A DNA stretch of 64,000 nucleotides from Narcine bancroftii (taxonomy: Eukaryota), in contig NC_091471.1 in NCBI RefSeq assembly GCF_036971445.1, forward strand, positions 241,676,001-241,740,000. The letters are read 5' to 3'. The position numbers were made by a program, and so were the translations under genes. Positions 5,740-63,509 of the stretch are shown piece by piece. A model generated the notes under the pieces. It ran no database searches. It was not told where the DNA came from and was given only the letters and a program-made list of their open reading frames with translations. Each line of letters starts with the position of its first letter. Position 1 is the stretch's first letter.

Positions 5740-6640
5740 ACCAGTCCCAGCGCTTCCGCTCACCAGGACTGACGTCGGGGGCGCGCGCCCCGCTTTCCCC
5801 CCAGCGCGCGCCCCCGGCCCGGCCCATCCACGCCGCTGCCTGCGCCGCCATTTTGTAGCGTCTTTAATTTTCTTTCTCCCTCACAAAATGTTCCCTGGCA
5901 GGGCTCCCACCGGGCAACAGGCCGGCGGAGTCTGGTCGCGGCGCATCCCTCCGGCATTTCCGCGCGCTTCGAAACCCCTAACAAAGGCAGGCAGCCGAGG
6001 GCCAGAATTTTGGGATCGTTATTTAAACCAACCTAAAAGATCGCGGTCGATCGCTTCACGGTGCAAACCAGTTCGAATTAGGATGTTCGCTCTCGACGAT
6101 TTATGAAAACTTTGAGGGGGGGTAAAAAAAAGGAAAAAAATTCCCTTGGCCAAAAAGCGTACAAGGCCTGCGAACCGAACGCAGTCGTTTGATTGTCATG
6201 CCGATCGGCCAATGGCGCGTCAGCATTCACACCGCCCTGACCATCCCAGCCACTCAGGACAAGGCAGGGCGGGTTCTCTCCTCCCATCAAGTTAGGTTAC
6301 ACGTTAAAATGATGCGACCGAGGCGGAAATTCGGGACCATCTCCGACAGTAAAAACAAAACGCTTTCTCTGAAAAGCGCGACTCAAGAGAGACCTGCTTC
6401 GAAAACAGATATTTTTTTTAAAACAAAATAAAAGCGCACCGCCGCTTTACCTGAGTACCAAGAATCCATTTTTGATTTCGTTAAATTCAAAAAAGCCCTT
6501 GCCCCGCTCCGGGAGAATTGTCCAGCTCCGGAAGAACCGCCCTTCGCGTCCGATTGGTTGTAGCTTCGCGACGACGCATGAGGACCTTTCGAATCTGATT
6601 GGAGGCTGAGCTGTCCCTCAAGGAACGTCCTCATTTTTAT
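5740..6640 (-). promoter_or_regulatory. CpG island / promoter and intron 1 of paralog C
   Basis: CpG-rich; CCAAT boxes on the minus strand upstream of the ATG (gattgg near 6552 and 6597); YY1-like ACAAAATGGCG at 5856-5846. Confidence 0.7.
6451..6469 (-). CDS. Putative coding exon 1 (MDSWYS-G) of a third, divergently oriented AKAP8-family paralog C
   Basis: Minus strand aaaaATG GAT TCT TGG TAC TCA G|gtaaag: same 19-nt length, phase 1 and MDxxYSG pattern as A and B, inside a CpG island. No downstream exon was found in 1-6450. Confidence 0.62.
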
Positions 6641-7889
6641 TTACATAATGGCAATCTACCAAAGGTAGATCACATCGATATTGGGAGCAGGAGACCCCGG
6701 TGATCCTCTCTGCCACTCTTATGGTGCTGTGGATTGGCCTCCAATCCATTTCTCTGCAGCAACTGTACCACAATGATGCAGCCGGCCAGGACGCTCTCGA
6801 TAGAGCTGTTGCAGAAGGTTAAGATAATGGTGGCCGGTAGCCTTGCCTGCTTCAGTCACCTCAGGACGTGCGGTTGCAACCAAAAGCTCATACCCATTGT
6901 GGGCTGATGGTTTCAAGTACAGCACATTCACATTCTGGGATATCAGGGCTGAGAGTTGCAGTGTCAAGGTGGGGAGCCGAGGCATCAGGTCGGAGAGTTG
7001 TAGTCTCAGGGTAGGTAGTCATAGATGGGCATGGAATACCTTCATCAAGATATAATGAGATAGAAAAGCTTTCATCTTTTTAAAGGAATATATAGCTTAG
7101 CACAACATCGAGGTCTGACCTGTACTGTCTTGTAATATTCTATTTAAAACTAATCTAACAGCAATTTGACATTGATCATAAAGTTTCAGAAGTGAATGAA
7201 CATGGCTGTGGGACTCTAGGTGGTTAAAGAGTCTTGAGAAATGACAGCCATTGAAATGAGTCACAGGAGTGGTCCCTGTGGAAGGCAGAAAGGGGTGAAG
7301 AAAGGTAGATGTGCTGCTGGGATCTCATTGTAACTGGCACAAATGACAAAGGATGATGTGCTGGGTGTGAAGGCAAGGTGGGATTAGAGGAAATTTATCT
7401 CAGTTTGGAGGGAGGGATGAGAGCAGAATGCTCTTCATCTGTCCATCATTCTTCACCCCTCCAATTCACAAATCAACTTTCACAAACCCATGACACAATC
7501 CTCCACTGATTTTTATCCCCTCCTCCTCCTGGTTCCATCCGCTTCCACAGACAGGAGACGTCATTAGGATGCAAGAAATTACCAAATGATCAGAAAGTTT
7601 CAAAGCTTCCTTGTAAAAATTACTACTGGGATCTTCTGATCCCCAGGTATTTAGGGTAGTATTGAGAACCTTGAGAAAATGCATTGAGCATGTTTAGAAG
7701 CATGATCTCATTTTTGCACTAATCATTTATTTTAAATAGTGTATTTAAGGAAATGTAATTTATAGGAATTTTTGCACCTGTAATACACAGTACTGCTGTC
7801 ACAAAACAACAAATTTTGTGACACATGTTCATGACAATAAACCTGATTCTGCAGAAGCATCACACAGCTCACACACTAACTCCCATCAT

Positions 7890-8795
7890 TTCCCACAGTG
7901 GCACCTCAGAATCTGTATTTATTGTCATGAACATCATGAAATTTGTTGTTTTGGACAGCCTCACAAGGCAAACATTTATATAAACCACCTTACCAAATAA
8001 ATAAAAATAATGCAAGAAAACCTCAAAGTAAAAGCAGTGTCTGTGGTTCGTTGTTCTTTCAGGAATCTGATGGCAGAGGGAAAGTAGCTGTCCTTGTGCC
8101 ACTGATTGTTTGTCTTCAGACTCTTGCACATTTTTCACGATGGTAGCAGAGTAAAGATGCCATGACCTGGGTAGTTGGGGTCTCTGAGGATAGAGGCTGC
8201 TTTATTAAGATATTGCCTTTTATAGATGTCCTTGATGGATTGAAGTCTGGAGTTTTTACTTGTTCTGAGTGTTGGCACTTCAGTACCAGACAGTAATGCA
8301 ACCAGAATGCTCTCCATGGTACAACTTGTATAAGTTTTTTTGAGTCTTTGGTGACATACTGAATCTCCACAAACACCTCACAAACGAGCCTTCTTTCTCA
8401 TTGAAAAAACACAAATGCTGTAGAAACTCAGCAAGTCAAACAGTGCCTTCATGTAGCAAAGGTGAAGATACATCACCAACGTTTCGGGCTTGAGCCCTTC
8501 ATCACGGTGTAGGGGAACATGAGAGATGTCTGAACAAAAAGGGGAAGGGGGTGAGGGTGGGAGATGATAGGTGGGGGGGGGGGAAGGGTGCATCAATGTG
8601 GAGACCTCAGGACAGAGCCTTGGATATCTTGACACACAGGAATTTGAAGTTCTTGACCCTCTCCACCACTGAACCCTCAATGAGGATGTTTCGTGTCCCC
8701 CTGAAGTCCACAATTATCTCCTCCGATTTGCTAACGTTGAGTGCACGGTTGTTGGTGTGACATCACCCAACGAGATGAACTACCTCCCACCTGAG
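7890..8795 (-). mobile_element. Rex1/Babar-type LINE 3' fragment, interrupted by a Penelope terminal repeat (~8400-8590)
   Basis: KDIYKRQYLNKAASILRDPNYPGHGIFTLLPS and VERVKNFKFL-type remnants on the minus strand. Confidence 0.7.
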
Positions 8796-8939
8796 TGTTA
8801 ACTTACAAATACTTATCTAGAGATGAATTTAGGTCTCCTTAAAAATCAATATTTCCAAGTCTGACAGTATTTAAAAGCTACACTGCCGATCTGTTTTATG
8901 AACTTGACCTCCCATTTTCCCCCACAATATAGCCTGACT

Positions 8940-9925
8940 TGGGTCACGTGTCCGAGCCAGCATCCGCCCTCTGAGGTTGTAGTGCACGTGATCCTCTCAT
9001 TCCAGTGTCACCGGTCCCACCCTCCCCGCCTTCTCTGACGTCACCAAGGCCTTTGCGAACGTATCTCACTGAAGCGGGATAACAATGGACGGTCGCTACG
9101 GAGGTTGGTGCGATCCAGATTGTCTGGGATGGTTGTTAAGGCGCGAGTAAACCTCCCCTTTGTATTCTTGCGAACCATTTAACGAGGATTGCCTCTGGGT
9201 GAGGCTCCGACGCGGGTAAAGATCTCGCTCGGGGTCGCCTGAGTTACTGGCCTCCTGCTTCCTCGTCCTGCTCGCGGATTGGCTGAGCTGCGACCAGCGC
9301 TTCAAATCATAGGCTAGCGGCGCTATCAATCAAGGCCCGCCAGCTTGGCTGCTTCCTCCAGAGCCAGGGCTGCTGCGTTTCCACTCACGTTGGGCTTAAA
9401 GTTAAGGGGAAAATACGGCTCTTGCATAGGAGATGCCGTGTGGAAATCAAATCAATTGATAACGCCAATCTTCCTTCACACGTACGTGAAACGCACTTTC
9501 CACGTGCGGTGCCAGTTGAAGCAACCTCTTTGAAGCCTTCAGTCGAGGCCTTTTCCTTTAAAAATATATATTTTTGACGGCGCCTTCGTCCCCCGCCGGG
9601 GACGAAGGCGCCCCTCCCGCCTTTTCCTCATTAACCTCGCCGGTCGCTGGCTGCAACGCCACAAAATGGCGCCGGCTTTCCTGCCGCCGTCTCCCCCCCT
9701 CCCTCCCCGTGCTCACGAGCGCGCTCTCGCGCACGCGCCAATGGAAGAGGGGGCGTGGACGTCCCTGAAGGCTCGGGCTGGCGCGGGCCCACGTGCTCGG
9801 GTCTCCCTCTCAGCTGGGGTGAAACACGGAAGACTGCAGTCACATGGGAGGTGTGTGGAGTAGGGGGAAACTCGGCATGTCAACCTGCACGTTTTAGAGC
9901 GAAGCCAACGGCACGTGAACGACGT
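8940..9925 (+). promoter_or_regulatory. CpG island / promoter and intron 1 of paralog A
   Basis: CpG-rich; E-boxes CACGTG, GC boxes, CRE TGACGTCA (~9036), YY1-like ACAAAATGGCG at 9661. Confidence 0.75.
9085..9103 (+). CDS. AKAP8L: Paralog A coding exon 1 (MDGRYG-G)
   Basis: ATG GAC GGT CGC TAC GGA G|gttggt in a CpG island; mirrors exon 1 of paralog B and the human AKAP8 start MDQGYGG. Confidence 0.8.
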
Positions 9926-21900: not shown

Positions 21901-24900
21901 TTAGTTTGCTTTGACTGTTTGGTTTCTCTGTGTATAGCTGAATATGAAAATTGAGTGACAAGAATTTCCATACTTTTTCAGAGTCTCATTTCTATAAGGG
22001 TTTGTTGTTGAAGAACTTAGGATTCAGAAACATGAACATTTATAATGTTAGAGTACTTGTCAATTGGCTTATGAAATAGGATTGGAGTTGTCCACTAAAA
22101 TGTAAATGAAATTATGTCATGCTAAATCTTTCACCAAACAACCTTTCATGGCAGTGGTCTTCTTTAAAAAATGTTAAAATTTGAAGATTTTTTTCTAAGA
22201 CCATTCCCTTACACTTCTGATTTAGACTCTTGTTAGTAAGGATGCCTCCTTTTGCTTGCGTGAAGGGACCCATGGTTGCTTGTTCTACTCATTAAAGGTA
22301 CAGGTCCCCTCTGGAGGGTGCCATACTGCTTTGGCTTATTACAAGAGATCAGAGCAGAAACTCGGAGACTTTCGTGGCAAGTATTGTGAATGGTAGGTGC
22401 TGTTTGGCATACAATATTATCCTGACCATGAAGTTTAAATGTTTATACCCATGAACTAACACCACCAAGCAACGGAATCTGATTGGATCGAAGAACCATA
22501 TCCATCATGTATGAAATATGTGCAGTTCAGGTATTCTGATAGTTGTCCTTTTTACTTCTGTCACTTTCCCCTTTCTTTTCTCTTGCTGTGTATCCTCCCT
22601 TTCTTGCCCCTTTTTTCCCTCTTGATATGCTCGTACAAACCATTTTTTGTGGTAGTTGATAAACCAATCATTTCCTATTCTAATGGCCATTCTAATTCTA
22701 ACCACGTTTCTGATGAATGTGAAATCATCAGGCTGCAATACACGATCAGCACATGCTGCCCTTTGTCCTCTATCGCAAATGTTTTCCATTGAGTTGATGT
22801 GGGGCATTAATGTGCACCCTGACCGGTTTTGAGCACAATATCTTTTTGAAATCTTTGGTTTGAGTTCCCAAAAAAAGGAAAATCTGCAGGATCTCTGGTG
22901 TCTAATTACATTCTAATGAAATTATGCCCACCTATTTTAACTATGTATGGTTAACATTACAGTCATCTGGAAGAAGATCTATTTCCCAATAAGAAAACTG
23001 TTTCCCCCATACATTCACTATAAAGGTGTATTTATACATAATTCCTCTCAGCTTCCAATTGTAGATTTACGTTACTGGGCTCAACATGTATCATTTCTGC
23101 CATATCTAAACACGTCAACAGTATTCATTCGACTTTTCTGTAATTTTATTCTTGCTGCATGGTTATCTTCAATATATTTTTAATTATTCATGGCAATGAT
23201 TTTATTGTCATATACAGTAAAACCCCTGTTATCTGGAATTCAAGCAGCCAGCAAAAAAAGTCGCAGAAAATCTACCATTAGTTAGCCAATAACGCAACAT
23301 GTAATTTCAAGCAACCAGAAAATTCTACCATCCACATATGTATAGATGCACCAAAATACTTGCTTGCTACAGTTGAATAGGCACTTAGTTTTAAAAAAAC
23401 TTTTAAAAAGTACAATAACATGGTTAAAAAGAGACAAGAAATGCAAAAAAATACATAATGGTGACAATTAACCAGGTGGGGAAAAAAATGACTTGGCAAT
23501 AGTGCTGAGGGTCCTTTTGTGATGTTGGAGAAGTCCCTGATTAATGTAACAAGGGCCTGATGGCTGTTTGAACGAAACTGTTTTTGAGTACAGAGCTGCT
23601 GACGTTCTGGCTTCTGTACCTTCTGTCTGAAGGTTGTGACCAAAGTGATTGGAGTCCTTTATGCTGCCTTCTTGAGGCAGTGCATCACATAAGTGAACTC
23701 AATGGATGCCTGGAGCCTTCTGTGCTCTTGTTTAATGTGTGATTGCTTATGCAGAGAAGCACAATTTTGTTATTGTGTATACTCCAGTCCACCACCATAC
23801 TAAAGATTTATGTAGCACTGATGTGTAAACCCATACACATGAAGATGACCCAATCATTTTATTTATTGGTTGATCAAGAACAGGTGCTCAGAATATTTGG
23901 ATGAAGGGTATCATCTAGGATATTTGTGGCCACCATGTGGAATAAGTTAAGTTGAAGATCCCAGCCTTACCAATGATTTTCACTTGTTCAGTTTTAAAAT
24001 AAAAGTTACCTGAAGACAGCCTTCAAACATTCATTTGTTAGACTTGTATGAACAATTTAAACAAGGGTCACCTGAGGAAATAATTGGTGTCCCCCCAAAA
24101 CGTTGAGGAATATCCAGTAGAATCTCCATTACCCAGAATTCAATCAACTAGAAACCCAAACAACTGGCAAAAAAAATCGAGGAAATAAATAAAATTGAGA
24201 ATAAATAAAATTTTAAATAAAAATTTTAAATTGTAAAAGCACATATTCTCCGACGCAACACACATCCTTGGAGAAGATGGGAACAAACATTCAGCCAGCG
24301 GAGTGCCCTGGTTGTGAATAAAGTGTTTGAGTAAAATGGTGTCACCTAGGATGAAGAGCTGGCCAATGCTGCTCACCACTGGGGCGACTCTCCCAAAGTG
24401 TCTCCATATCCCAACCTAGAAAGAATCTTTTATCTATTCGTATTAAGTATATTAGTAAGCTTTTATCTGTAATCTTGGGAGAGCGGGTTAATTATGGTGG
24501 TTGTGCGATTAGCATAGCAGCTAGCACAATGCTGTTACAGCGCCAGCATCTGGGGTTCAAATTTAAATTTTATAAGTTATAGGAATTGCTTGATTAAAAT
24601 GAATTACATAATTAAATTCTACAATACTGATTGTATTTTTTTCAAATTATTTTATATTTGGAACTGTCTTTTGTCTTTTAAACTGTGTATTCTGAATGAA
24701 GGTGTATTAGTTAGGCATTGTAACAGTGTCTCAGTCAACCGGAAAATTCGTCTACGCAGCATCCACGATCCCTATAGGTGCTGGATAATGGGGATTCTAC
24801 TGTATTTGGCTTTTTTGTGTGTGAAGGTAGCTGGACTAACCAACTCAATTTTTGTCTGATTCTGTTTTCCTCAGAGTATGGAGAGGATGATTCTTGGAAC

Positions 24901-27900
24901 ACAGGGGAAGACGATGGTCAAGGTGATTATCTCTCTACTATTACACTAAACTATAAGATGCAAGTTTAATTGGGTCAGAATTATCTTTTTTTTTCCTTGC
25001 AGTTAATTCAATAATTATGTATGATAGTTTCAAGCATGTGATTGGTATTAGATTTTTCTACAATTTTAACTAGTTCAGACCAGCAAATAAAAATGTTCTG
25101 ATTTCTAATGTTGGACATCAATTAGCTGTTTAGGTTGGAAATGATTTTAATGAGCAACTGTTTATCATTAAGGATTAGCTGCTGTCTTGATGCCCACTGT
25201 GTAGGGGATAGCAATTTGCTATGATTTATCATAATGTTAAATAAATTAAAAAAACAAAAATACAAGATGATTTTAAAGATTTTTGGAATGCGACTAAGCA
25301 GTCCAGTAGTCATGAATTTCCTTTGGAAAATGAATTCAATTTTTAAATTTTGAATGAAATCTTTTAATTTGGACATAAAGCATGGTAACAGGCCATCTTG
25401 GCCCATGAGTCTGTGCCGCTCAATTTACACGCAATTAACCTAGACCCCATACGTTTCGAGCAGTGGGAGGAAACCAGAGCTCCCAAGAAAAACCCACGCA
25501 GACACGGAAAGAACATACAAACTCCTTACAGACAGCGCGGGATTCTAATCCCGGTCCCTCTTGCTGGTGCTGTAACAGTGTTGCGTTAACTGCTATGCCA
25601 ACCGTGCAATACAAGGTTTCCCATTAAATTAAGGACAAGTGGCATAAAGTGAAAATATATTCTTTCCAATGACTTAATGTTTTTTTTAAATGAAATTTGA
25701 ATGGTTCTCTGCAATGAGGAATTGAGAATAGTGGTGTATTGGAACTAGGCCATTTTGAAGTAAAATAGGAATGTGTCCCAAACAAGGGTACTGAAATTCT
25801 TAAACTTTTATTTCTCTCTGTTTCTGTTTCTTCCATGTTAACTGTTACTTCCTCTACAAATCCAAAAACTTTTTTTTAAGATGAGAGTTTTAATAGTTAG
25901 GACCATAATATTGGGTAAAGAAGACTGTTATGATCTAATTAAATTGTGGAATAGACTTGAATAGAAGACAGGCTTGGTTCTATTGCTGTGTTTGTACTTA
26001 TTTTATGTGAGTATCTGATTATGTGTATTTTGTTCCTGTTAGGGTATGATGGCTATGATTACAATTACAACCAGGATTATTCAGGAGATTACTCAGGAGA
26101 TTACTCAGGAGATTACTCAGGAGATTACTCAGGAGATTACTCAGGAGATTACTCAGGAGATTACTCAGAAAATTATGGCTATAACCCTGGCAATAAAGCT
26201 TGGAATACTCCCAAAAACCCCAACACAGATACCATCATCGCTAAGATCAACCAACGCCTGGATATGCTCTCTCAGCTTGAGTGTGATAACGCACCAGGCT
26301 CCTCTTCCTGGTCTTCAGGCCACTACAACAGGTATCTTCTGGAAAGTCACTAGATGGTAAAATATTGTGTGGAAAAAGTGAAGAAATTCAACTTGGGACT
26401 GATGTGGCATTTTAAGTTTAAATAGGCTAGCACCCATGTCAGCTCTACCTCCACCCCATCCCCTCCCAACCAACCAACCCCAAAGAGAAACTGGTGCTTG
26501 CCTACAGTATGGTGAGAAAACACTGGTTTATTAATGTTATATTTAATGCTGCAATATTTATCATATTTGAAACAACTCATTTAAGCATGGATCTAACATA
26601 GATTTAACCAACATTGTTTAAACCTCATTAATCCTGCTTATGTCTCACTTAGTATTTTGTGCCAGACATTCGAATCATTTTGAAACCACCAGGATTGTCG
26701 GCATAATTGACCCTAGGTTTGGTTGGTTGTTTTAGGAATGTGAATGGGTCTTCAAGGATTTTCATCTGCAGTACAACATGCGCTTGGTAATGTGTAGAGT
26801 ATAGATTGCCTTGACATTATAAAATGCCCAGTCTTTCCAGTAATTAGGTTATCTTGACAACAACTTAACATATGTAACTGAGGGCTGCGGTGAGTTGATT
26901 CATCATTTTAAAATGCAAATTTGGAGGCTCTTTTCTCCATATCTGAAAAATTTGCCTTTTTGGTGCTCTAAGCCATTCATTAGCCACTGTCGTTAGTAAT
27001 TGTTACCGACTCCAAGGTGAAACCTCAAACACCATGATTACCTGAAATATCCTGTTTAGTCTTTAGTCTGCGTTCACTGATTGATTGGCAGAGGCTTGTG
27101 CCCATCGTCCTTTCCAGCTACTGATTAGATTCCTTGCTTCCTCTGCGACTCTTTCAGGTTTGCACCCTATGAGTCCTATGACTCCAGGTCTTCAATGAAT
27201 GACCATGATCCGTACAGATCTGGCTACGGCTATGGTTACGGTGATTCTGGACCTAATTATAACGATTCCTATGGAGGTCATTATGACCACTACGACAACT
27301 CCTACGGCTCTCGCAGAGATCAGTACCACCACAGAGCATATGGGAGCCAACGGGGTCAGAATTGGTCTAGAGACTGGGCTCCAAATAAGAGAGCAAACTG
27401 GAATGACCCCTACATGCAGCCTGGAAGTTCCAGGCGGATGTCTGCACACTGGAATGAGCTGTCAATGGGAGGCAGAGGCTACAATGCTGCCTCCTCCACC
27501 AGAAACCTCCCTTCGCTCTTCTCCCCAAACATTATCCCCATGGACCTGTTCCGAGCTCAAGGCTCGGCAAGAGCGTTTGGTGGCAGACAGCGAAGGAGAG
27601 ACAAGACTCGAACCAGAGGCGTAAGTACCTATCTTAAAAACACAAGCATTTTATTTTACTCAGTAGCCAGTGGGTATAATCAGTGAAAAATCTAAAAAAA
27701 GTTAATTTGCAGATTTTTTTGTGCAGTGTCCATCGTCCATTTTTAATCTCAAATCAGGTATTCATTCTGCTAATGCCCTTCCTAGCAATGGAAGAATTTG
27801 TAGCTTCATTGGTTGAGAATAGGGCTAAATGTTCAGGTTTTACATTGATGCTAATTATTCTTGCGTGTTGCAGGACCATCTTCCAAGTAAATTCATTGTG

Positions 27901-30900
27901 TAAACATTTCAGTGTTTCGATTTAATGTAACACTTTATAAAATAATTTTATTTTCTCTCAACTCTTGCACCCCCTCACCCCAAACCCTCAAAGCAATACC
28001 TGTTGAACAATCAGACATAGCGTTGGCATGGTTGAGTATTGGGTATTAAGGGACTGAAGGAGTCCTGAACTTGGTCATAATTGATTAACTATGCCGCTAC
28101 CTTGGTGGGGTGGGTTGCCTCATGTGTTGGGATGCTGGGTTGGCAAAAAAGCCTTTTTGGTTGGCTTTAAGAGTGTATTGTATGCCATGCTGTCAAAAAT
28201 AACTTGATAGTAGTGGAGACTCTAAGTGTTACATGACAATCTAATTTTGCATTTTCCAGTTGGTTACACCTGTCTGGTTTGAGTTACAGATTAATATGCT
28301 TCCAATATGATGTTGTAATACATCTTATTTACAGGATTTTATGATAAATCTTTTTGGCTTCTGGCCTTGCTTAAGTAAACTCTGGAATTCTTAAAATTGG
28401 CTTTTTATTTGGCATAAGTAATTCTTTAAGAGTTTGAAATTTGATTCCAATGCAAGCTGTCTTTGTTTCTTATTAGAGAAAGAAGGTTATAGTTGGTCCA
28501 GGGAGGAAGAGGAAACAATCAACAAGTAGTACTGAAGACCCTGAAAACAAGCAAGCAAAAACAGATGAAGATGACGGTGAAGACGACGCTGGTAGTGTAC
28601 ACCACTTTGATACTCACTTGGGCCTTCTATCTTCTTGGTACTGAGAGGAGCAAGTGAAAGTTGGTCATGTTGTTTGAGCTCGAGAACAAATCCTGAACAG
28701 GCTCTGATCCAGAAAGTCGGCAAATACAATCTGGGATTTAATTGCTGAAAGGATGGATCCCAACAGTAGAGATGCCTTGCTGCAATTGTAGAGTGCTTTT
28801 GTGAGTGTACCCTTGGAATTTGCCCACAGTTGTAGTGGTTTTATTTAAGGTAGATCATTCTCCCTCACAGACCTGTGTACATTTAAAATTGAAATTTTTG
28901 TACTAAAGGAAATGAAGGATTATGGAGATGAGGCCTGGAAGTGGACCCAGCTGTTATAAAGCTCAAGCCATTCTAAATACATTAAATGCAGATTACAAGG
29001 AATGGATGCTGCTCAAGCAAATATTGAGAGGCTGGAGGGCCTCAGCAGGTCAAGCAGAGCTCCAAAGAGAAATGGGCAGTTGCCATTTTTGGTCAATATC
29101 CTTCAAAACTGGTGAGGAGCTGGCAACCATAAAAGGCGGGGTGGGGGTGGAGAGGAACGAAGAAGTGATGGAATGCTGGGCCAATTAAAATGAGAGTAGA
29201 TGCATGTAAAGACAGGGAAAGAGTGGAATCAGATTGCGGTGGTGTCACCTGAAATTCACTATTAATGGTGTTGGATTCAAATTCAAATACCATTTGACTC
29301 GATGGGTCCCTCCAGCTACTCATTGCTCAAAATTCCAGACTTTGTATTCCTTGTGTTTCTTAAATATGTTGGATTGCGGGGCAGTGACTGTGCAGTCAGA
29401 GGATTGTAGTGTAGAAAATGATTTGGATAGAGAGTTTTCTAATCAAAAGTTATAGTAGCTGAAAAATTGGAAACCTTATGCTATTTACAGTAAGAAATCT
29501 GAAATTCTGGGCTAGAATGTATGCAAATTAAGTTAGTCTCGTGAAATTGGGTTTATGGTTAAAGATCATGGTTGTTAGTGAACAATTTAATAGAATCAGC
29601 TCAATTTTATTTCTACAGTTGAAAGCTCCTCTGTGTGATTTGATGTGATAACCATTCAAGCAATTGTTTATGCTGTTTTTATTGCAGAAGACAAGGAAGA
29701 CGATGGAGCTGATTCAGTAAGTACGAACTTCATTTGTCTTTTCTCCAAAAATACATCAACCAGAATGTAGATTCATTTTTCTGCTTATTAAACCTGTTTG
29801 GTTGTTAAATGTGGAATTGTTATGAAATTAGAGAGGAGGCAGAAAATGCCTTGGATTTAACCAACTTATCCCTTTTATTAGACAAATGAATTGTTGCGTT
29901 CTTTTTGTGATTTTGCTCCACTGAATTCAATTTCAAAACTTGAATTATCTGCTTCATGCGGCTGTAAAACAATTTAAATTGGTATTCCCTCTCTCTGGTC
30001 AAGAGATGGCTTCAGTTAAACTGTCCAAATTAATATCTATCAACAAGTTGAATTTTAATTGGTGTAATTGAAAATTATTGACAATTAAAAACAAAGGTGT
30101 GTGTAGTCAATACTGGATGGTGCATGTGGGGTGTGAAGCTTGGTCAGGACCTGAAATTTTAATGTACTCGCATTCTTTTTCAGGGAGGTGAGGACAAGGA
30201 TCCAAATGAGAAGAAACCGAAGCGTTGTAGGTTTGATCACAGATCCCGAGAAAATGTTGCATCACTTACTACCTTCATTAACTAGTAATCTCAAACTACT
30301 CAGATGGCAATCTACAGATTCTGCACATGTAAATGTTATACTTTCCATTCATCGTCTTGCACATTCATTTAAGATGGTGGAATAACTTGCATTAGGCTTT
30401 TGCCAGTTTAATGAACAGACAGTGAATAAAGATTGAGGGTTTCAATGGGTCAGGCAACTACAACAGCTGGTCAAATTGCTTAACTGTCATTGGTCCTGGA
30501 TGGGGCAAATTTATATTGAATATGAAACATCAAGAAGATCACAGTGATGTTACAAAAGAGGGTGCTGCTTGTCTAGGAACAATGGGATCTCAGAGTAAAT
30601 ACACTGATGTCTAAAAGTTGCACCTTAGCTGAACATTGCCATTAAATACATTTTAAGTTTAAAATTAGACATACAGCATGGTAACAGGTCCTTCCAGACC
30701 ATTCACCTGTGCCGCCCAAATAACCTACATCCCCGGAACATTTTGAAGGGTGGGAAGAAACCCATGCAGACACGGGAAGAACATATAAACTCCTTAAAGA
30801 CAGCACCTGAAAGCTAGAGAACTTGTGCTAAATTACCCTTAAATAGCTTATAATTATGAAAATTGCACACATGATTGCCATTAGAAAAACAGACTGGAAT

Positions 30901-39026: not shown

Positions 39027-39299
39027 CATTCTTTCTATAATTGGATGAATGTGGTCATCTATACTGTTCAAGAAACCTTCTAAAGAGCCACGTTATGAAA
39101 AGAAATGTGGTGATTACAAATTGTGGGTACAAGGGACCATGACGCTCTAATTTTTAAAAGAATGGTTTGTATTTTCTATTTCAAAAGGTTTGCTTCCTTT
39201 AAAAAATTGGCAATTATGATAGACAACTTCAAGCTGAACGAAAAGATAATTTCAGATTTGCTGTTTCATATATGAAGTTGGAGAAATGAAATTAACAAA

Positions 39300-43099: not shown

Positions 43100-43576
43100 T
43101 TCTTTCTTTGGCTTGGCTTCGCGGACGAAGATTTATGGAGGGGGTAAAAAGTCCACGTCAGCTGCAGGCTCGTTTGTGGCTGACAAGTCCGATGCGGGAC
43201 AGGCAGACACGATTGCAGCGGTTGCAAGGGAAAATTGGTTGGTTGGGGTTGGGTGTTGGGTTTTTCCTCCTTTGCCTTTTGTCAGTGAGGTGGGCTCTGC
43301 GGTCTTCTTCAAAGGAGGTTGCTGCCCGCCAAACTGTGAGACGCCAAGATGCACGGTTTGAGGCGTTATCAGCCCACTGGCGGTGGTCAATGTGGCAGGC
43401 ACCAAGAGATTTCTTTAGGCAGTCCTTGTACCTTTTCTTTGGTGCACCTCTGTCACGGTGGCCAGTGGAGAGCTCGCCATATAACACGATCTTGGGAAGG
43501 CGATGGTCCTCCATTCTGGAGACGTGGACTCGATGCTGTCGACCTCTGCCATCTCGAGTACTTCGACGTTAGGGGT
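43100..43576 (-). mobile_element. RTE-clade LINE 3' end
   Basis: MEDHRLPKIVLYGEL...[12 protein letters not shown]; (AAAG)n tail; small internal deletion at a CGTG microhomology (~43523). Confidence 0.92.
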
Positions 43577-44164
43577 TAATCTAATTAAAATCTATTTATA
43601 ATTTGCTGTTGTTTAAGATGAAAGTCAGAGCCTTTCACTTAAATCAGATTTATTGTCACGAGTACATACATGACATCCCTGTGAATCCTGCGGGCCGGGC
43701 AGAATTACAAAAAAAAACTACATTGTGGGAAAAAAAACAACTAAATATGATTGCATGATATTGAAATTTGGCATATAAAGCTTTATCAAAACCTTGAAAT
43801 GTTAAAAAAGAAGGGAGAACTATATTTGTTCAGGTATAATTTTTGATATTATACTGTAATTAATAGCTCTCCTGAGTAACATCTCAAAATAAGGAATTTC
43901 AGATTAATTCAATTTTTGAGAGGGAATATTCCTACAGTGATTAAGTTCACATTTTCATATTTAGTACACAAATAAAGAAATGTAAACAAACTGACTGCAC
44001 TACAGAGAGAAGTAAAAAATGACCATATTAAGTAGGGGGAAACTGCACTTACTGGAACTCAGGGGTATAAGAAACTTGTGAATGATTTGAGCAATAACTT
44101 AATTACACTTCCCAGTGGGAGGCTCGAATTGGAGGAGACATTTTCCTTTGACATTTAATGTTCG

Positions 44165-45250
44165 AGGATGTGCCCGCAACGCCTGCACCTTCTTGCATGG
44201 GTAATAAACGGGTTAAAATTCTCAGCCGGGCACCCATGGTAACCGTCATGAAGAAGAACGATTGACGGAATTTAAAGCCAACCAACGCCCGCTACGCTTT
44301 AAAGCCTGCCCACATTCTCAAGCCTTGACCAATCGGCGCCGGGTGGGACATCCGGGTGAGTGGGAGCTCGCTAGAAGCGGCTGAGGACTTCTTTCTGCAG
44401 CCGAAGCAAAATGGATGGTCGTTATTCAGGTTAGTCGAGCAAGTCTCATCACGTTTGGTCCTAATTTTTCTTCCAACGATTTCACCGTCGTGTATGTGAG
44501 GCAGAGATTGGCGTTCCCAGCGGGATTTGTTTACGGAGGGGAGATATTTCGCGTCAAGACGGGGAGGTAAATCAACGCTGACGCGGCTATCGGCCTTCCT
44601 GGGGAGATGATTGGCTCTTGTGTTTGTCAGTCAGGGATTTGCCGTCATCTGATTGGTTGGCGTTCATGTCGTCCTGGTTCTGAGGCGCGAGTATTAATGG
44701 CTCCTGGTTTGTTCGCAGCTCGAACATGGCCTTGCTGGGAGCTGATTGGCTGCCGTGCGTGTCAGGCAGGGGTGTCCCGTCATGTTATTGGTCGGTGCTC
44801 CTGTCACTCATCCGCAGAGCCCTCTTCAGAGGCGCGAGCAGTAATGGCTCCTAGATTGTTCACAGCGCCAACGAGTCGTACCCCCCCCCCACCACTGCTC
44901 CATCCTGGGACAACCGTGACAGCTCAAACGGCGTCCTCCAACGGCACAGTGATTTAAGAATGCAGCAGAAGTTTTGCTCATTTTTTTCTCTCTCTCTCGT
45001 CTGTGGACGCCTGGCCCGAATTAAATGTGGACGCTGAAGTGGATGGTGTTCGTCTCCTGGGCTGCCATGCTCACAAAATGGCGCTGCTTCGCGAGGCGGA
45101 CTGTTGGCAACGCGCGGGGGTCTCGCGGCGTCCGTCGTGCCCAGCACGTGCACGCCTTTCTTTTCCCCCCCCCTCCCAAATGTCCAAAGCGGTGGGTGTG
45201 GCAGGATCCCTGGGCTCCTGCATCGCATCCCATCCCACTGCAGCTAAAGT
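44165..45250 (+). promoter_or_regulatory. CpG island / promoter and intron 1 of paralog B
   Basis: CpG-rich; CCAAT at ~44329; multiple ATTGG in intron 1; YY1-like ACAAAATGGCG at 45073. Confidence 0.75.
44411..44429 (+). CDS. AKAP8: Paralog B coding exon 1 (MDGRYS-G)
   Basis: aaaATG GAT GGT CGT TAT TCA G|gttagt within a CpG island. Confidence 0.82.
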
Positions 45251-57200: not shown

Positions 57201-60200
57201 CAGCAGTGTGGACTCGATATTTGCCCATTAAATATATAGAACTATTTTTCCCCATACTTAAAAGGTGGAGCCACCAGTTTTGCTGAACTCCATAGTTCTT
57301 CCTGACTAGCTACCTCTCCTTTTGGATATAAATTTGAGTCCAACAATTCGTGTATTTTTTTTTTTTTGCAGAACAGCATTTGAGAAAATTCCGACTTTGT
57401 GTAATTTTTGGTGTGAGGTACAGCTGATGCAAGAAATTGTACAATATTTGGTATTGATGACTCTAGTCACTGTCCATCACTCTTCATTGATTATTGTTCC
57501 CAAGTCAAACTCCCATCTCTTCCTTGACTGTGCAAGTTGAGCTTGCTTGTCAGAGGCTGTTTGAGTTGCATGGTATGAAGAGTATTTGTGTAGCAGTGGG
57601 AGCTCGTCCCGACGACTACCCTTCAGCTATGAAGTCCCAAGTCTATATATTACCACAACAAATGTGAAACTTCATGCAGTATGTTTCCACCCACATATTA
57701 CAAACATAGAAGATAGGAGCAGGAGTAGGTCATTCGACCCTTCGAGCCTGCTCCGCCATTCAACAAGATCATGGCTGATCTTAAAGTTCAGTACCCCGTC
57801 CCCGCCTTCTCTCCGTTACCCTTATACTGAAGAAATATATCTAATTCCCTCTTAAATATATTTAATGAACCTGCCTCTACTGCCCTCTGTGGCAATGAAT
57901 TCCACAGATTCACCACCCTCTGGGTCAAGAAGTTCCTCCTCATCTCGGTCCTAAATGGTTTGCCTATTATCCTCAAACCATGGCCCCGGGTTCTGGATTT
58001 TCCCATCCTTGGAAACATCCCATCTGCATCCATTCTGTCCAGTCCTGCCAGAATTTTATATGTCTCTATGAGATCCCCTCTCAATCTTCTAAACTCCAGC
58101 GAGTACAATCCCAATTTGTGCAATCTTTCCTCATAAGTCATTCCTGCCATTCCAGGTATCAGCCTGGTGAATCGCCTCTGCACTCCCTCCATTGCAAGAA
58201 CATCCTTCCTTAGATAAGGTGACCAAAACTGCACACAATATTCCAGGTGGGGTCTCACCAAGGCCCTGTACAGCTGTAGTAAGGTATCCTTGTTCCTATA
58301 CTCAAACCCTCTTGATATGAAGGCCAACATACCATTTGCCTTTTTAACCGCCTGCTGTACCTGCATGCTCGCCTTCAGAGACTGGTGTACAAGTACCCCT
58401 AGGTCTCTCTGCACTTCCCCATCTCTTAATCTATTACCATTCAAATAGTAATCTGCCCTCTGGTTTGTATTACCAAAGTGGATAACCTCACATTTATCCA
58501 CATTGTAGTGCATTTGTCATGTATCTGCCCAGTCCCTCAATTTATCCAAATCACACTGGAGCTTCCTGACCCCCACTTCCGTGCACACAACCCCTCCTAG
58601 CTTAGTGTCATCTGCAAATTTGGAGATATTACATCCAATCCCCTCATCCAGATCATTAATGTAAATTGTGAACAGCTGGGGTCCCAGTACAGATCCCTGT
58701 GGCACCCCACTGGTCACCGCCTGCCCCTCAGAAAATGAGCCATTTATCCCAACTCTCTGTCTTCTACCTGCCAGCCAGTTCTCAATCCACATCAATACTT
58801 TGCCCCCAATCCCATGAGCCTTGATTTTGTAAGCCAGTCATTTATGCGGGACCTTATTGAAGGCCTTTTGGAAGTCCAGGTACACCACATCCACTGGCTC
58901 TCCCCCATCTATTTTACCTGTCACCATCTCAAAGAATTCCAATAGATTTGTCAAGCACGATTTACCTTTTGTAAATCCATGTCGACTCCGTCCGATCCCT
59001 TCTCTGCTAGTCATATGCTCCGCTATTACATCCTTAATAATGGATTCCATCATTTTGCCCACTACTGATGTAAGGCTCACCGGCCTATAATTCCCCGCTT
59101 TTTCTCTACCCCTCTTTTTAAATATTAGTTTTCATGTTGCTTCAGGATTAGGAATAGACTACAACTTTTGAATGCATACTATAAATACGCATTAACTCTA
59201 GGGGAGGAGGGTGAATCCAAATTTTAGGATCGATAATGAAGTGCTTAAATTGGTAAAAGATTAATTATCACTGGCCTGTTCATTACCAGATAAGGTTACC
59301 TGTTGCTTATTTAGAAAATATTGTTAGTTTCTTCTTTATGAAAACATGCCATTCTTGGTATTTGTATTATCTGTTCGGACTACATAACAAACTTAAATTT
59401 ATTTGTGCTACTGACCAGATTCCTTGTTTGTTCTGTGACTCTTTCAGCTTTGCACCTTTTGAGTCCTATGACTCCAGATCTTCGGTAGATGATCGTGATC
59501 TGTTCAGATCTGGCTTTGATTACAGCGAGTCTGGACCTTATCGCAACGATTCCTATGGAGGTCGTTTTGACCGCTTTGACAACTTCACCAGGCCCCGCAG
59601 GGATTATTTCCGTTACAGAGGGCGTGATGGCTCCAGCAAGTTTCGGGGTCAGAGTTGGTCTCGAGACTGGGTTCCAAATAACAGACCCTTCTGGAATGAA
59701 CCCTTTTCATCAAGTACTGAGCGACTGTCTGCGTGCTGGAATGAGATGTCGATGGGAATGGGTGGCAGGGGCTATGGTGGCCCCTCCAGGAACCCTCCTT
59801 CACTCTTCTCCCAGACCTTCAATTCTGGATATGGGTCATATGGCATGCAAGGAATGGGGAAACAGTTTGGAGGTTTCAGACCACGAAGGAGAGATTGGAA
59901 TCGGGTCAGAGGTGTAAGTAAAATACTTTTATTATTTTATAAGATTACAGGTTAAACAATTCAACTGCGTGAATTTCAGTATGCACTTGAAGAATTCAAA
60001 TTCCAAATCTGCTGCAATCCATTTCTAATTCTTACTTGTTTAAAAATAAAGTAAAGATTATTTGGAAGACAAAAATGGCAAAATATATGGAATGGATGAA
60101 AATAAAGAGAGCATTTGTAGGTGGAATCTATAGTTTACGGAAAAACATTTATTCTGTTAGATAAAAGTTTAAAAGGTCGTGATACAGATTTCAAAATCAT

Positions 60201-63200
60201 TTGTCATTTGAGCATGAAAAATTGGATGAATAATAGGATCTACTTTGCATAGTGGTTTTTGGGAGGATTATAATTTGTTTTGCATTGTGTTTGAGTCATT
60301 GGAAAAATTTCAGTGTATGCACGTGAAATTTGGAATGTTTAACATTCGCTCATCCAACTTCTGTGGCTCCGTAAGCTTTGTACACTTCAGTTAAATTTCA
60401 TCAAAGTGCTTAGGTATATACAACCATTCTCACAAATTAGTGGATGACAGGATAAAGACAAAAGTTTTGACTTGATGAAATGCATGCAAAAATAAGAATT
60501 GAAACAGTGTCTCCATTGAGTTTTAGAAATAGATTACCGGTAGGTTTGAACATTTGCAAGAACCAGAAATTAATCTGGCTCCAAGATTGATTGCTGAGCA
60601 GTGATATCAACGTATTCTGTTCTATGCATCTGAGGAGCATGATCTCTTTTAGTTAACAGAATCAAGGGGAAATGTTGACTAATGCTATAATATCTTTATG
60701 ACAGAGAAGAGGTAGAGGTGGAATAATAGGTGGAATGAAGAGGAAACAATCAACAGGAAGCAATGATGAACCAGACTTCAAAATGTCAAGAACAGACCAG
60801 TCAGATTTGTCAGACAGTGAAGAAGGTAACCTTATTAAAAATTTAATATTGCACCTTCTTCCTTCATGACTTTTCGTTCTTGATAAGGAGTTTAAGTAAC
60901 CCATTTATCATGCAAAAGAGTTACTCAAACATCCTGAATTTCAGGTAGTACTTTCAAGTTGGAGTGATGAGGGTGAAATTTTGAACAATCATGTCTCCCT
61001 CTTGGGTATTGGATTTTAACACTCTTTGGGACTCATTATTTGGAATACAACAAGGTTGGGACTTGGGGAACCTCCCAGGTTGTACAGTATATTTGCCCAT
61101 TAAATATATAGAACTTTTTTTCCCCCATACTTAAAAGGTGGAGCCACCAGTTTTGCTGAACTCCATAGTTCTTCCTGACTAGCTACCTCTCGTTTTGGAT
61201 GCAAATTTGAGTCAGTTTTTTTTTTGCAGAACAACATTTGAGAAAAATCCGTATTAATTTTTTCTTTTTTGGATTCGAGGCAGCTTTTCTGTTGAGTAAA
61301 TTGTTCAGAATGATTGAAGCATTCTCCAGAGCTCTAGATCTATTTTTTACTCAGTAATATTTTTGGTTAATTAGTGTTTTAGCTGATCTGGTTCACATGT
61401 TAATGAGCATGTGATTTGTGTTTTGTATTTAGAAGAGAGGGAAGCACATAATGATGATATTGAAGATGCTGCTGCAGGTGATGCGTCCACTGTGAGTATT
61501 TCTGTCATTGTTGAAGATTGCACTTTGACAAATTTTAAGCATGGAAATGGTTTCAGGATGCAAAAAGATGGGATTCAGAGGTTTATTTTACTTTCAGTAA
61601 AAGTCCAAAAATCCGAATGCCAGAAATCTGGACCACCTGTGGCTCCAGACTCTCAAACTTTTTAAATTTAGTGTGCATGCATGTGCAAGTGCCACAGATG
61701 CATTGCAACAATAAGCAACCATGCTTATACAGGTAATGTTATCACAAAGGAATTAATTTGTATCCTGTATTTTTCTTTTACGATGTTCATTTTAAACATA
61801 ATTTCAAGCATTGCATGCTTTTTTTGGAGTATAAAAGATTATACTTACATTTTTGTCAAATGTTGACTTTATTTTTCATTAAAACTGCTCATTTTGTTAA
61901 ATGAGCATGCTGTATTTGTTAACGAATAATCAAAATTTACCTGTTCATCTCTTCTTCATTCCTCCTTAAATCTGAATGTAAAAGTACTGCCCGAGAATCC
62001 AAACTGACCAAAATCCCCGAACAGTCTGGATTTTAGGACTTTTACTATATGGAGAATCCGTTTAAAGCTCGATTTAATTTCAGGAAATTCCCTTGTGTCT
62101 GCGTCACATTATTAATGTCACTTGGCTACATTACTTGTTGGAATGGCCTGAATGGATATTAATTGGATTATTTTTGTTTTTTAATTTTTTATGAATAAGG
62201 GTGGAATATTTTGACTATTTCCCTTTTGTTTTGGATGTTGTTTCAAATGGTAAAGATGAGGGTGTTTTTTTTTTCATTATTGTTTGTTTTTATTCATCAC
62301 TCATTTACCAAATCTGTACATTTGTTGCCCTTAAGAAGGTGGTGGTGGTGAACCGCCATCTTGAACCACTGCAGACCTTCAGGTGAAGGCATTCCCCTAT
62401 CTCTGTTGGATAAGGAGTTCCAAGGATTAGACTCCATGATGATAAAGGACCGATGATGTCTATTTCCAGGTCATCATGCTGTACAACCTGGAGGGGAATA
62501 TGCGTATGCTGGTTTTCCATCTACTTGACGCTGAGAGCTCCTTTGAGCTTAAGGGTTTAGGATGTGCTGTGGGATTGCTGATGGTGGACTGATGTTTACA
62601 TAAGCAATTGGAGTAGGCCATCCTGCCTGTCACGCCTGCTCCATACTGAGCTAGTTTATGTTTTGTCCTGGATTGTCCGTTGAGAATTGTTTATACCACA
62701 CTTGTCCAGGCAAGTGGAGGGTGTTCCTTCAAATATCTGATTTTTGCCTTGGTCCAATATCTAGTACCGTAGAATTAATTTGGCTTTATTTCTTTGGTAA
62801 TTCAGAGAGGAAATTTAGTTTAATTTTATTATTCTGTACATCATTATTCATGTTGCTGTTTTCAGGTTTTCCAAATGGTAGAGATTTTAAAATTTAAATA
62901 AACTCATCAGATAGCAGTTAGCGCAATGCTATTACAATGGCAGCGACCCGGCTTTGAATCTGACAATGTCTGTAAGGAGTTTGTACGTTCTCTCTGTGAC
63001 CTGCATGGGTTTCCTTCGGGTGCTCCAGTTTCCTCCCACCATTCAAAATATACCAAGGTTAATTGGGTGTAATTGAGCAGCACATGTTTAAGTGGCCAGA
63101 ATTGGCTTGTAACGTGCTGGAAGCAACAACAAAACAAATCCTGGTTCATTTCTCCACCATAAATTTCAATGATTGTGCATCTGAGCCAACATGTTTTTGT

Positions 63201-63509
63201 AAAATCTGGGGTAATTTCTTAGTGTATCATTTAAACTTCTTTATATTTAGAGTGTTGAGGATAAAGATTTAAATGAGAGTCCCGAGAAGGAGAAAAAAGA
63301 AGCTGCCGAGGGTGAAGATGATGAGTCCAAGAAATGTAAGAGTACTGGTTTCCTGTTCATTTTGTTTGTGTGCATCTGATAGAATACCTGTGCCATTAAC
63401 TCGTTTTTTTATTAGCTGGTGACCTACAAGAGGAAACTAGTGACAGTAAAAAGAAGCCATATAACAAGGAGAAACCAAAGAAAAAACAGCGGGATCGTAT
63501 TACACAAAG
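44411..63509 (+). CDS. AKAP8: A-kinase anchor protein 8 / 8-like (AKAP95 family), paralog B; 5' part (8 exons), continues beyond the window
   Basis: Exons 44411-44429, 47287-47325, 48211-48379, 59448-59913, 60705-60825, 61433-61491, 63251-63335, 63416-63509. Phases 1,1,2,0,1,0,1,2 are identical to paralog A. Motifs: [54 protein letters not shown]. Symbol tentative. Confidence 0.88.
45375..45830 (-). mobile_element. Rex1/Babar LINE 3' fragment
   Basis: AAIKDPHQPAHALFSLLPSGKR. Confidence 0.72.
47287..47325 (+). CDS. AKAP8: Paralog B exon 2 (GSYGNWTAESSSA)
   Basis: ttttgtag|...GCAG|gtaaaa; 39 nt; resembles AKAP8 GYGAWSAGPANTQ. Confidence 0.8.
48211..48379 (+). CDS. AKAP8: Paralog B exon 3 ([18 protein letters not shown])
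   Basis: cctcctcag|...GAAAG|gtatct; phase 1-2. Confidence 0.92.
49114..49993. other. Assembly gap
   Basis: Run of N. Confidence 1.
49994..51816 (-). mobile_element. RTE-clade LINE, long RT-containing segment between two gaps
   Basis: NYRGITLLSIAGKIFAR, QCGFR, FVDLTKAFDTV, GVKQGCVLAPTLF, LFADD; one frameshift near 50680. Confidence 0.95.
51817..52180. other. Assembly gap
   Basis: Run of N. Confidence 1.
55860..57400 (-). mobile_element. L1-clade LINE 3' fragment carrying a nested RTE
   Basis: WPCTKMRPFWEDL remnant; similar to 849-1405. Confidence 0.68.
56747..57218 (-). mobile_element. RTE-clade LINE 3' end
   Basis: MGHVSRMEDHRLPKIV...HKRACS; (AAAG)n tail. Confidence 0.92.
57703..59123 (-). 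mobile_element. CR1 LINE, well-preserved RT and 3' end, 5'-truncated
   Basis: SLTSVVGK, HGFTKGKSCLTNL, YLDFQKAF, VPQGSVLGP, FADDTKLGG, RPHLEYCVQFWSP; a few in-frame stops. Confidence 0.95.
59448..59913 (+). CDS. AKAP8: Paralog B exon 4 (FAPFESYDSR...PPSLFSQ...RVRG)
   Basis: ctttcag|...GGT|gtaagt; phase 2-0; colinear with paralog A exon 4. Confidence 0.92.
60705..60825 (+). CDS. AKAP8: Paralog B exon 5 (MKRKQSTGSNDEPDFKMSRTD)
   Basis: atgacag|...GAAG|gtaacc; phase 0-1. Confidence 0.88.
60960..61250. repeat. Local duplicate of 56616-56746 + 57219-57392 (empty-site version)
   Basis: Near-identical sequence without the RTE insertion. Confidence 0.88.
61433..61491 (+). CDS. AKAP8: Paralog B exon 6 (acidic)
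   Basis: gtatttag|...ACT|gtgagt; phase 1-0. Confidence 0.78.
61595..62047. mobile_element. Tigger/pogo-type MITE
   Basis: Terminal inverted repeats CAGTAAAAGTCCAAAAATCC ... GGATTTTAGGACTTTTACTA followed by TA. Confidence 0.72.
62905..63110 (+). mobile_element. tRNA-derived V-SINE (HE1-like)
   Basis: gggtttccttcgggtgctccagtttcctcccac core. Confidence 0.75.
63251..63335 (+). CDS. AKAP8: Paralog B exon 7
   Basis: atatttag|AGT...AAAT|gtaaga; phase 0-1. Confidence 0.8.
63416..63509 (+). CDS. AKAP8: Paralog B exon 8 (KPKKKQRDRITQR)
   Basis: tttattag|...CAAAG|gtaatt; phase 1-2; preceded by an 80-nt intron. Confidence 0.85.

What the first reader, a model, noticed from the sequence alone, without database searches (positions are those of the whole stretch)
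5740..63509. Probable three-gene AKAP95-family cluster (one divergent copy plus two tandem copies) instead of the familiar AKAP8/AKAP8L pair
Seen: three CpG islands each contain a 19-nt phase-1 first coding exon, MDSWYS-G (6469-6451, -), MDGRYG-G (9085, +) and MDGRYS-G (44411, +). A and B continue into full AKAP95-type exon chains with identical phases. Established: human has two adjacent, co-oriented genes, AKAP8 and AKAP8L, plus the unlinked ZNF326. Inference: this lineage has expanded these nuclear condensate/splicing regulators by local duplication, including an inversion.
Basis: partly seen in the sequence, partly recalled or inferred. Interest (0 to 1): 0.8.

Follow-up and report, generated by a model that had tools for sequence, protein, structure and literature searches.

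The report
Third AKAP8-family gene in cartilaginous fishes
This stretch of an electric-ray chromosome holds three neighbouring genes for a known family of RNA-splicing helper proteins where humans have two; the extra copy is old, shared by sharks, rays and a chimaera, and is an ordinary gene duplication rather than a new kind of system.

Summary
The window matches Narcine bancroftii (electric ray). Gene A (9085-38775, +) is a complete 13-exon, 686-aa AKAP95-family gene. Gene B (from 44411, +) has exons 1-8 here. The lone minus-strand exon at 6469-6451 encodes the exact N-terminus of a third RefSeq AKAP8-like protein (P0025) on a contig of the same length as A and B; its other exons lie left of the window. 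All three classes occur in sharks, rays and Callorhinchus. A and C are sister genes (100/100; six alternatives rejected, AU p<=2e-4), so they duplicated in the chondrichthyan stem. Whether B is AKAP8 and A+C are AKAP8L co-orthologues is unresolved: exons 4-5 favour it, zinc-finger exons do not. All keep both zinc fingers and lack the mammalian PKA helix, so they most likely work as nuclear RNA-binding splicing scaffolds. A and C are Tyr-rich and B is Phe-rich in the disordered region. The genes are already machine-annotated and caecilians reached three genes independently; I found no paper on the shark trio. Interest modest.

The parts
5740..6610 (-). CpG island / promoter and start of intron 1 of gene C; CCAAT boxes at 6602 and 6557 (-)
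   Evidence: CpG o/e 1.02
6451..6469 (-). Gene C coding exon 1 (MDSWYS+G, phase 1, donor gtaaag); exons 2 onward lie left of the window
   Evidence: equals N-terminus of Narcine RefSeq P0025; no further exons in 1-6450
5846..5854 (-). YY1-type motif (label recalled) 615 nt past C's ATG, in intron 1
   Evidence: short A-C match
9085..9103 (+). Gene A exon 1 (19 nt, phase 1) in CpG island about 8950-9900
9663..9671 (+). YY1-type motif 578 nt past A's ATG
24875..24922 (+). Gene A exon 2 (48 nt)
   Evidence: 100% to P0001 7-23
26043..26331 (+). Gene A exon 3 (289 nt; YG-rich, IAKINQRL motif; holds a 12-nt x 7.8 repeat at 26075-26168); absent from RefSeq isoform P0001
27116..27157 (+). Conserved 3' end of intron 3 of A (35/42 identical to B)
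27158..27620 (+). Gene A exon 4 (463 nt; Tyr-rich disordered region)
   Evidence: 100% to P0001
28477..28591 (+). Gene A exon 5 (basic RKRK cluster, likely NLS; inferred)
29688..29716 (+). Gene A exon 6
30184..30226 (+). Gene A exon 7
31364..31430 (+). Gene A exon 8
31857..31998 (+). Gene A exon 9 (zinc finger 1, residues 363-385)
33132..33237 (+). Gene A exon 10 (PF04988)
34178..34308 (+). Gene A exon 11 (zinc finger 2; PF04988 E 1.7e-14)
37364..37459 (+). Gene A exon 12 (PF04988)
38263..38775 (+). Gene A exon 13 to stop codon (acidic tail; no PKA-anchoring helix)
44411..44429 (+). Gene B exon 1 (19 nt, phase 1) in CpG island about 44100-45500
45075..45083 (+). YY1-type motif 664 nt past B's ATG
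47287..47325 (+). Gene B exon 2
48211..48379 (+). Gene B exon 3 (IVAKINQRL)
59406..59447 (+). Conserved 3' end of intron 3 of B
59448..59913 (+). Gene B exon 4 (Phe/Arg-rich disordered region)
60705..60825 (+). Gene B exon 5
61433..61491 (+). Gene B exon 6
63251..63335 (+). Gene B exon 7
63416..63509 (+). Gene B exon 8; exons 9-13 with both zinc fingers lie right of the window
   Evidence: full protein P0105

Best explanation
The locus is a cluster of three intact AKAP95-family genes, C (-), A (+) and B (+). Shown: three genes with the same exon plan; A and C are sister paralogues that arose by a local duplication in the stem of cartilaginous fishes and stand head to head in this ray, each with its own CpG-island promoter 2.6 kb apart. 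Inferred, about 0.6: A then B is the AKAP8L then AKAP8 tandem of bony vertebrates, and C is an inverted extra AKAP8L-type copy. Inferred from the family: each protein enters the nucleus, binds pre-mRNA introns by two AKAP95-type C2H2 fingers, and uses its aromatic/Gly/Arg-rich N-terminal region to bind hnRNPs and form condensates that promote exon inclusion; none anchors PKA. Inferred, weaker: the copies were kept because they diverged, the Tyr-rich A/C and the Phe-rich B giving condensates of different fluidity and partly different targets or tissues.
For: Exon 6469-6451 equals the N-terminus of P0025; 8 of 12 C-class proteins begin MDSWYSG. P0001, P0025 and P0105 of Narcine share contig length 375,657,673. 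PF04988 passes the cut-off in 6 of 6 proteins tested. A+C clade: SH-aLRT 100, 100/100; 6 of 6 alternatives rejected at AU p<=1.9e-4. A and C each hold a Callorhinchus member. All three classes seen in 6 of 20 chondrichthyan species; 10 of 11 species with contig data for two or more classes have them on one contig length. Both fingers keep their Cys/His ligands in A, C and B. Mammalian AKAP8 helix: scores 72-97 in 3 of 3 mammalian AKAP8, shuffle level (19-28) in 6 of 6 chondrichthyan proteins, as PMC12203939 states for non-mammals (passages). Family function: PMC5105168 passages, PMC7671046 whole text. Exon-4 Y/(Y+F): A 0.76, C 0.76, B 0.37, AKAP8L 0.61, AKAP8 0.49. B and AKAP8 share SSSERLSARWNEL and PSLFSQAL, while A/C and AKAP8L share GRM..RWNE and NI(I/F)P (alignment).
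Against: Orthology of B to AKAP8 is not resolved: SH-aLRT 66 for it, a tie in the AU test, 2.9/52 for the rival grouping, and 3 against 3 against 1 diagnostic columns. The trees have no outgroup. No functional or expression data for the shark or ray proteins were seen. Pristis B is 12 Tyr/12 Phe, so the Phe bias varies within B.
Confidence: 0.85

Rival explanations
1. Independent expansions: the jawed-vertebrate ancestor had one gene here. A, B and C all arose inside cartilaginous fishes, and AKAP8/AKAP8L arose separately in bony vertebrates, so B is not AKAP8.
For: Topology (AC,B | AKAP8,AKAP8L) ties for best on 448 columns (AU 0.55 against 0.54), is preferred by exons 9-13 (delta lnL 4.8, not significant) and is the free ML tree at 2.9/52. 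B shares the QEEI..IK.KL block of exon 8 with AKAP8L, not AKAP8.
Against: Exons 4-5 prefer (AC,AKAP8L | B,AKAP8) by 10.5 lnL (AU 0.11 for this rival, not significant). The site-mixture tree also prefers it weakly. Gene order A then B matches AKAP8L then AKAP8, as the fused camel model P0096 shows. Gene conversion among neighbours or fast AKAP8/AKAP8L evolution could pull the shark genes together (inference).
Confidence: 0.3
2. The minus-strand exon is an orphan or pseudo-exon, or the first exon of an unrelated gene.
For: No further C exon in 1-6450; no coordinates for P0025.
Against: Exact match to P0025's N-terminus and phase, expected 4e-6 times by chance in the window; strong CpG island, CCAAT boxes and the same intron-1 motif as A and B; A's intron 1 is 15.8 kb.
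Confidence: 0.02
3. Three genes were ancestral to jawed vertebrates and bony vertebrates lost one; A and C look like sisters because of early gene conversion.
For: Inverted neighbours can convert each other (established knowledge). Callorhinchus A is as close to C as to A in exon 4 (79-82% against 79%). Exon signals for deeper branches disagree.
Against: A+C holds on the whole alignment with all six alternatives rejected. None of the 20 or 24 bony-vertebrate rows falls with A or C alone.
Confidence: 0.07
4. The expansion is recent and specific to this ray.
For: None, apart from a Narcine-specific repeat in A exon 3.
Against: A-C 59%, A-B 43% and B-C 46% identity, while each has 63-83% orthologues in sharks, rays and chimaera.
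Confidence: 0.01

Closest known systems
AKAP8L (HA95/NAKAP95) of bony vertebrates
   Same: PF04988 twin fingers, INQRL motif, YESYDSR motif, Tyr-rich N-terminal region, no PKA helix; A and C share exon-4 motifs with it.
   Different: Two copies (A, C) head to head instead of one; A/C lack the QEEISQIKRKL block and carry KKPKRFPTMQE instead; orthology not statistically shown.
AKAP8 (AKAP95)
   Same: B shares SSSERLSARWNEL and PSLFSQAL, a lower Tyr fraction, and the downstream place in the tandem.
   Different: No PKA-anchoring helix; no ESSFRF extension or KPDPF linker; B's exon 8 resembles AKAP8L.
ZNF326 (DBIRD subunit)
   Same: Third vertebrate member of the AKAP95 family (PMC5105168 and PMC12203939 passages).
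   Different: All named hits of A, B and C were AKAP8/AKAP8L-type or uncharacterised; no named ZNF326 came up, so no direct comparison was made. That it is unlinked in human is recalled.
Caecilian AKAP8L duplicates
   Same: Microcaecilia and Geotrypetes each have two AKAP8L-type proteins, and Geotrypetes also has AKAP8: an independent three-gene state.
   Different: Nested inside tetrapod AKAP8L and much younger; orientation not seen.

Membership tests
AKAP95 family (PF04988) | AKAP95 domain above the Pfam gathering score | tested here: met
   6 of 6 proteins (A, C, B of Narcine and Callorhinchus), 138-165 bits against 26.8; 2 of A's 3 domain exons pass singly
AKAP95 family (PF04988) | Two C2H2 fingers with intact ligands | tested here: met
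   Finger 1 by pattern; finger 2 read from the alignment. The finger-2 pattern had the wrong spacing and found nothing.
AKAP95 family (PF04988) | YG-rich N-terminal low-complexity region and basic NLS-like cluster | tested here: met
   16-32 Tyr and 7-9 YG in the first 230 residues; RKRK/MKRK in exon 5
AKAP95 family (PF04988) | Nuclear location, RNA binding, condensates, splicing activity | not testable with these tools
   Inferred from mammalian data
True A-kinase anchoring protein (mammalian AKAP8) | Amphipathic PKA-RII helix after finger 2 | tested here: not met
   Segment 569-590 of P0383 (its role is recalled) scores at shuffle level in 6 of 6 chondrichthyan proteins and 72-97 in 3 of 3 mammalian AKAP8
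AKAP8L orthologue group (A and C) | Clade with bony-vertebrate AKAP8L | tested here: inconclusive
   SH-aLRT 66; AU tie; regions disagree; 2.9/52 for the rival
AKAP8 orthologue group (B) | Clade with bony-vertebrate AKAP8 | tested here: inconclusive
   Same calls; shared exon-4 motifs
AKAP8/AKAP8L locus | Synteny with WIZ and BRD4 (recalled) | not testable with these tools
   No flanking gene was found in the window and no vertebrate genome DNA could be fetched
ZNF326 | Clade with ZNF326 | not tested
   No named ZNF326 sequence among the listed hits

The most novel reading that the evidence does not exclude
Sharks, rays and chimaeras have no one-to-one AKAP8 or AKAP8L. Their three genes and the bony-vertebrate pair are separate tandem expansions of one ancestral gene that converged on Tyr-rich and Phe-rich condensate variants. 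The family also controls its own dose or form by an ancient splicing switch at exons 3-4: a 42-nt intron-3 element kept between A, B and coelacanth AKAP8L, and an in-frame exon-3-less isoform of A that needs a 1-nt microexon or re-splicing step. The trio would then be a natural series for testing how aromatic composition sets condensate fluidity and splicing output.
Probability: 0.2. Interest if true: 0.55.

Novelty: new variant of a known kind. Interest (0 to 1): 0.3.

Why it matters
It corrects the simple picture of a three-member vertebrate family (AKAP8, AKAP8L, ZNF326; PMC12203939 passages): cartilaginous fishes have kept a third gene at the AKAP8/AKAP8L locus since before chimaeras and elasmobranchs split (about 410-420 Ma, recalled). 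RefSeq calls all three 'AKAP8-like', so orthology is easy to mis-assign. The natural Tyr/Phe contrast mirrors the engineered Tyr-to-Phe AKAP95 mutant that hardens condensates and impairs splicing (PMC7671046), which makes a simple comparative test possible. It is a retained duplicate of a known family, not a new mechanism.

Tried and rejected
Looking for C exons 2-3 in 1-6450: six-frame reading, tblastn with A and partial B and with six database proteins including P0025 found none. A shared bidirectional promoter for C and A: rejected, as two islands are separated by CpG-poor sequence (o/e 0.18 at 7001-8800). Promoter homology beyond the YY1-type motif: only three short matches, E 0.012-0.53. 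Rfam: 0 matches at gathering score in 64 kb. Resolving orthology to AKAP8/AKAP8L: five analyses, unresolved. The careful tree did not finish, so the quick tree is cited; the model-selection run timed out; the bootstrap run finished. Callorhinchus P0116 is a partly mis-modelled protein: whole-protein BLAST put it with C by 40 bits (giving 5 of 20 species with all three), but the tree (100) and regional identity (84%/78% to shark B against 57-65% to A or C) put it with B (6 of 20). It was left out and the tree. Trees used 46 rows and 42 rows chosen by hand, one isoform per gene, from 413 stored proteins. Searches listed only 120 of 275 and 120 of 219 hits, and 90% clustering hides species, so absences mean nothing. 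No outgroup was used, so the trees are unrooted. Literature; no listed paper treats AKAP8-family genes of cartilaginous fishes (0 papers hold both 'akap8l' and 'cartilaginous fish'; 0 of 20 listed mention AKAP8). Li et al. 2020 (PMC7425812) is not held and was not seen. The tree figure of PMC12203939 (legend only) and all supplements were not seen and may include shark sequences.
Full report
Observation. The pattern M-D-x-x-Y-x-G|GT occurs exactly three times in 64 kb; 300 local shuffles gave a mean of 0.02 and never more than one. Each sits in a CpG island (o/e 0.89-1.02 against 0.41 for the window), and each has a CAAAATGGCG motif (YY1-type, label recalled) 578-664 nt past the ATG. Gene A has 13 GT-AG exons from 9085 to 38775 and gives 686 aa without a stop. 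Gene B has exons 1-8 from 44411 to 63509; its fingers lie beyond the window. The phases of A and B agree at 8 of 8 shared junctions. No exon 2 or 3 of C lies in 1-6450; that stretch holds a LINE fragment (zf-RVT) and other repeats.

What it is. A's exon 4 is 100% identical to a RefSeq AKAP8-like protein of Narcine bancroftii (P0001), and A ends with P0001's residues 24 onward exactly. B equals Narcine P0105 over the 351 residues in the window. A third Narcine protein, P0025 (661 aa), begins MDSWYSG, which is what the minus-strand exon encodes; a chance match is expected 4e-6 times in the window and 0.02 times on the whole chromosome. All three are listed on a contig of 375,657,673 bases. Exact RefSeq coordinates were not obtained. 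All carry PF04988 far above cut-off, both C2H2 fingers, a YG-rich N-terminus and an acidic tail. Pairwise identity is 59% (A-C), 43% (A-B) and 46% (B-C).

How old. The 43 named chondrichthyan proteins come from 20 species and fall into three classes. All three classes are seen in 5 of 20 species by BLAST score, and in 6 of 20 once the mis-modelled Callorhinchus P0116 is placed with B by tree and regional identity. The database is clustered at 90%, so missing classes are uninformative. In 10 of 11 species with contig data for two or more classes they share one contig length; the exception is Mustelus A on a 40-kb scaffold. A and C form a clade (SH-aLRT 100; 100/100), each with a chimaera member, and all six trees that pair A or C with B, AKAP8L or AKAP8 are rejected (AU p<=1.9e-4). 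The A/C duplication therefore falls in the chondrichthyan stem. The opposite orientation is seen only here; whether other species share it was not testable.

Orthology. The unrooted relation of A+C, B, AKAP8L and AKAP8 is unresolved. The site-mixture quick tree gives B+AKAP8 at 66. The AU test ties that with A+B+C together (0.54 against 0.55). Exons 4-5 favour the first by 10.5 lnL and exons 9-13 the second by 4.8, neither significantly. The free ML tree gives the second at 2.9/52, and diagnostic columns split 3:3:1. Shared exon-4 motifs and gene order (the fused camel model P0096 runs AKAP8L then AKAP8) make me prefer B = AKAP8, with A and C as AKAP8L co-orthologues, at about 0.6. No named ZNF326 or cyclostome sequence was available to root the tree. 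Caecilians duplicated AKAP8L independently and keep AKAP8, so a three-gene state is not unique.

How it most likely works. In mammals AKAP95 binds introns through its fingers and hnRNPs through its N-terminus, and all three family members enhanced minigene splicing (PMC5105168, passages). Condensation depends on Tyr, and a Tyr-to-Phe mutant forms less liquid condensates with impaired splicing (PMC7671046, whole text). Only mammalian AKAP8 has the PKA helix (PMC12203939, passages); the corresponding segment scores at shuffle level in 6 of 6 chondrichthyan proteins. So the three proteins most likely act as nuclear RNA-binding splicing scaffolds, not kinase anchors (inference). In the exon-4 region Y/(Y+F) is 0.76 in A (7 rows) and C (6 rows) but 0.37 in B (6 rows), against 0.61 for AKAP8L and 0.49 for AKAP8. 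I infer, weakly, that divergence in condensate behaviour and expression kept the copies; B varies (Pristis has 12 Tyr and 12 Phe) and nothing here tests it.

Side findings on splicing. The last 42 nt of intron 3 are 35/42 identical between A and B, against 14-20/42 for the six other homologous intron ends and 15.4 +/- 3.2 over 171 acceptor pairs. A coelacanth AKAP8L model reads through what appears to be the same element (P0033). It holds a branch-point-like CTACTGA and an AG 29 nt before the acceptor, whose use would shift the frame. Separately, 7 named A-class proteins from 7 species lack exon 3 and read QG|F at the join. A plain exon 2-4 join stops after 35 residues; one more G reproduces P0001. 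Exon 3 begins AG|G|GTATGA, so a 1-nt microexon or re-splicing step would give this; a shared annotation artefact is the alternative. Several tetrapod AKAP8L short isoforms also drop the INQRL part of exon 3, apparently by an internal donor. No transcript data were seen.

Novelty. The genes are known to databases as unnamed 'AKAP8-like' loci. Searches listed no paper on the chondrichthyan trio (search listings only, except the three papers named); subscription journals, the tree figure of PMC12203939 and supplements were not seen. Verdict: real, a retained stem-chondrichthyan duplicate in a known family; new variant of a known kind; interest 0.3.

Noticed in passing
window 27116-27157 (+) and 59406-59447 (+): 3' end of intron 3 is 35/42 identical between A and B (other homologous intron ends 14-20/42), with a branch-point-like motif and an upstream AG 29 nt before the acceptor; apparently also in coelacanth AKAP8L (P0033 read-through). 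Possible autoregulatory splice element.
   Followed up: partly
window 26037-26049 (+), start of A exon 3: Seven named A-class isoforms lack exon 3 yet need one extra G to stay in frame; AG|G|GTATGA suggests a 1-nt microexon or re-splicing, or a shared annotation artefact.
   Followed up: partly
window 26075-26168 (+): 12-nt coding repeat x 7.8 (SGDY) in A exon 3; a single unit in other rays. Adds Tyr stickers in Narcine.
   Followed up: partly
window 5846-5854 (-), 9663-9671 (+), 45075-45083 (+): Same YY1-type motif about 600 nt into intron 1 of all three genes; 3 of the 5 such motifs in the window.
   Followed up: partly
P0098, P0099, P0100, P0102, P0169: Caecilians have two AKAP8L-type genes plus AKAP8, an independent three-gene state; the duplication predates the Microcaecilia-Geotrypetes split.
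   Followed up: partly
P0032 against window 44400-44429 and 59448: A Hypanus B isoform appears to join exon 1, in another frame, directly to exon 4: skipping of exons 2-3, perhaps an NMD form.
   Followed up: no
window 1-1400 (+): 3' part of a LINE ORF2 with frameshifts (zf-RVT, E 1.5e-4) inside intron 1 of C, antisense to C.
   Followed up: partly
window 15662-15924 (-), 20957-21312, 43100-43576, 49994-50489, 56750-57218 (+): Five copies, 92-99% identical, of a young repeat (likely the 3' end of a LINE); assembly gaps at 49114-49993 and 51817-52180 lie among them in B's 11-kb intron 3.
   Followed up: no
window 63500-64000: CpG-rich stretch with a 33-nt tandem repeat (63887-64000) in B intron 8; it is not a fourth first exon by the pattern.
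   Followed up: no
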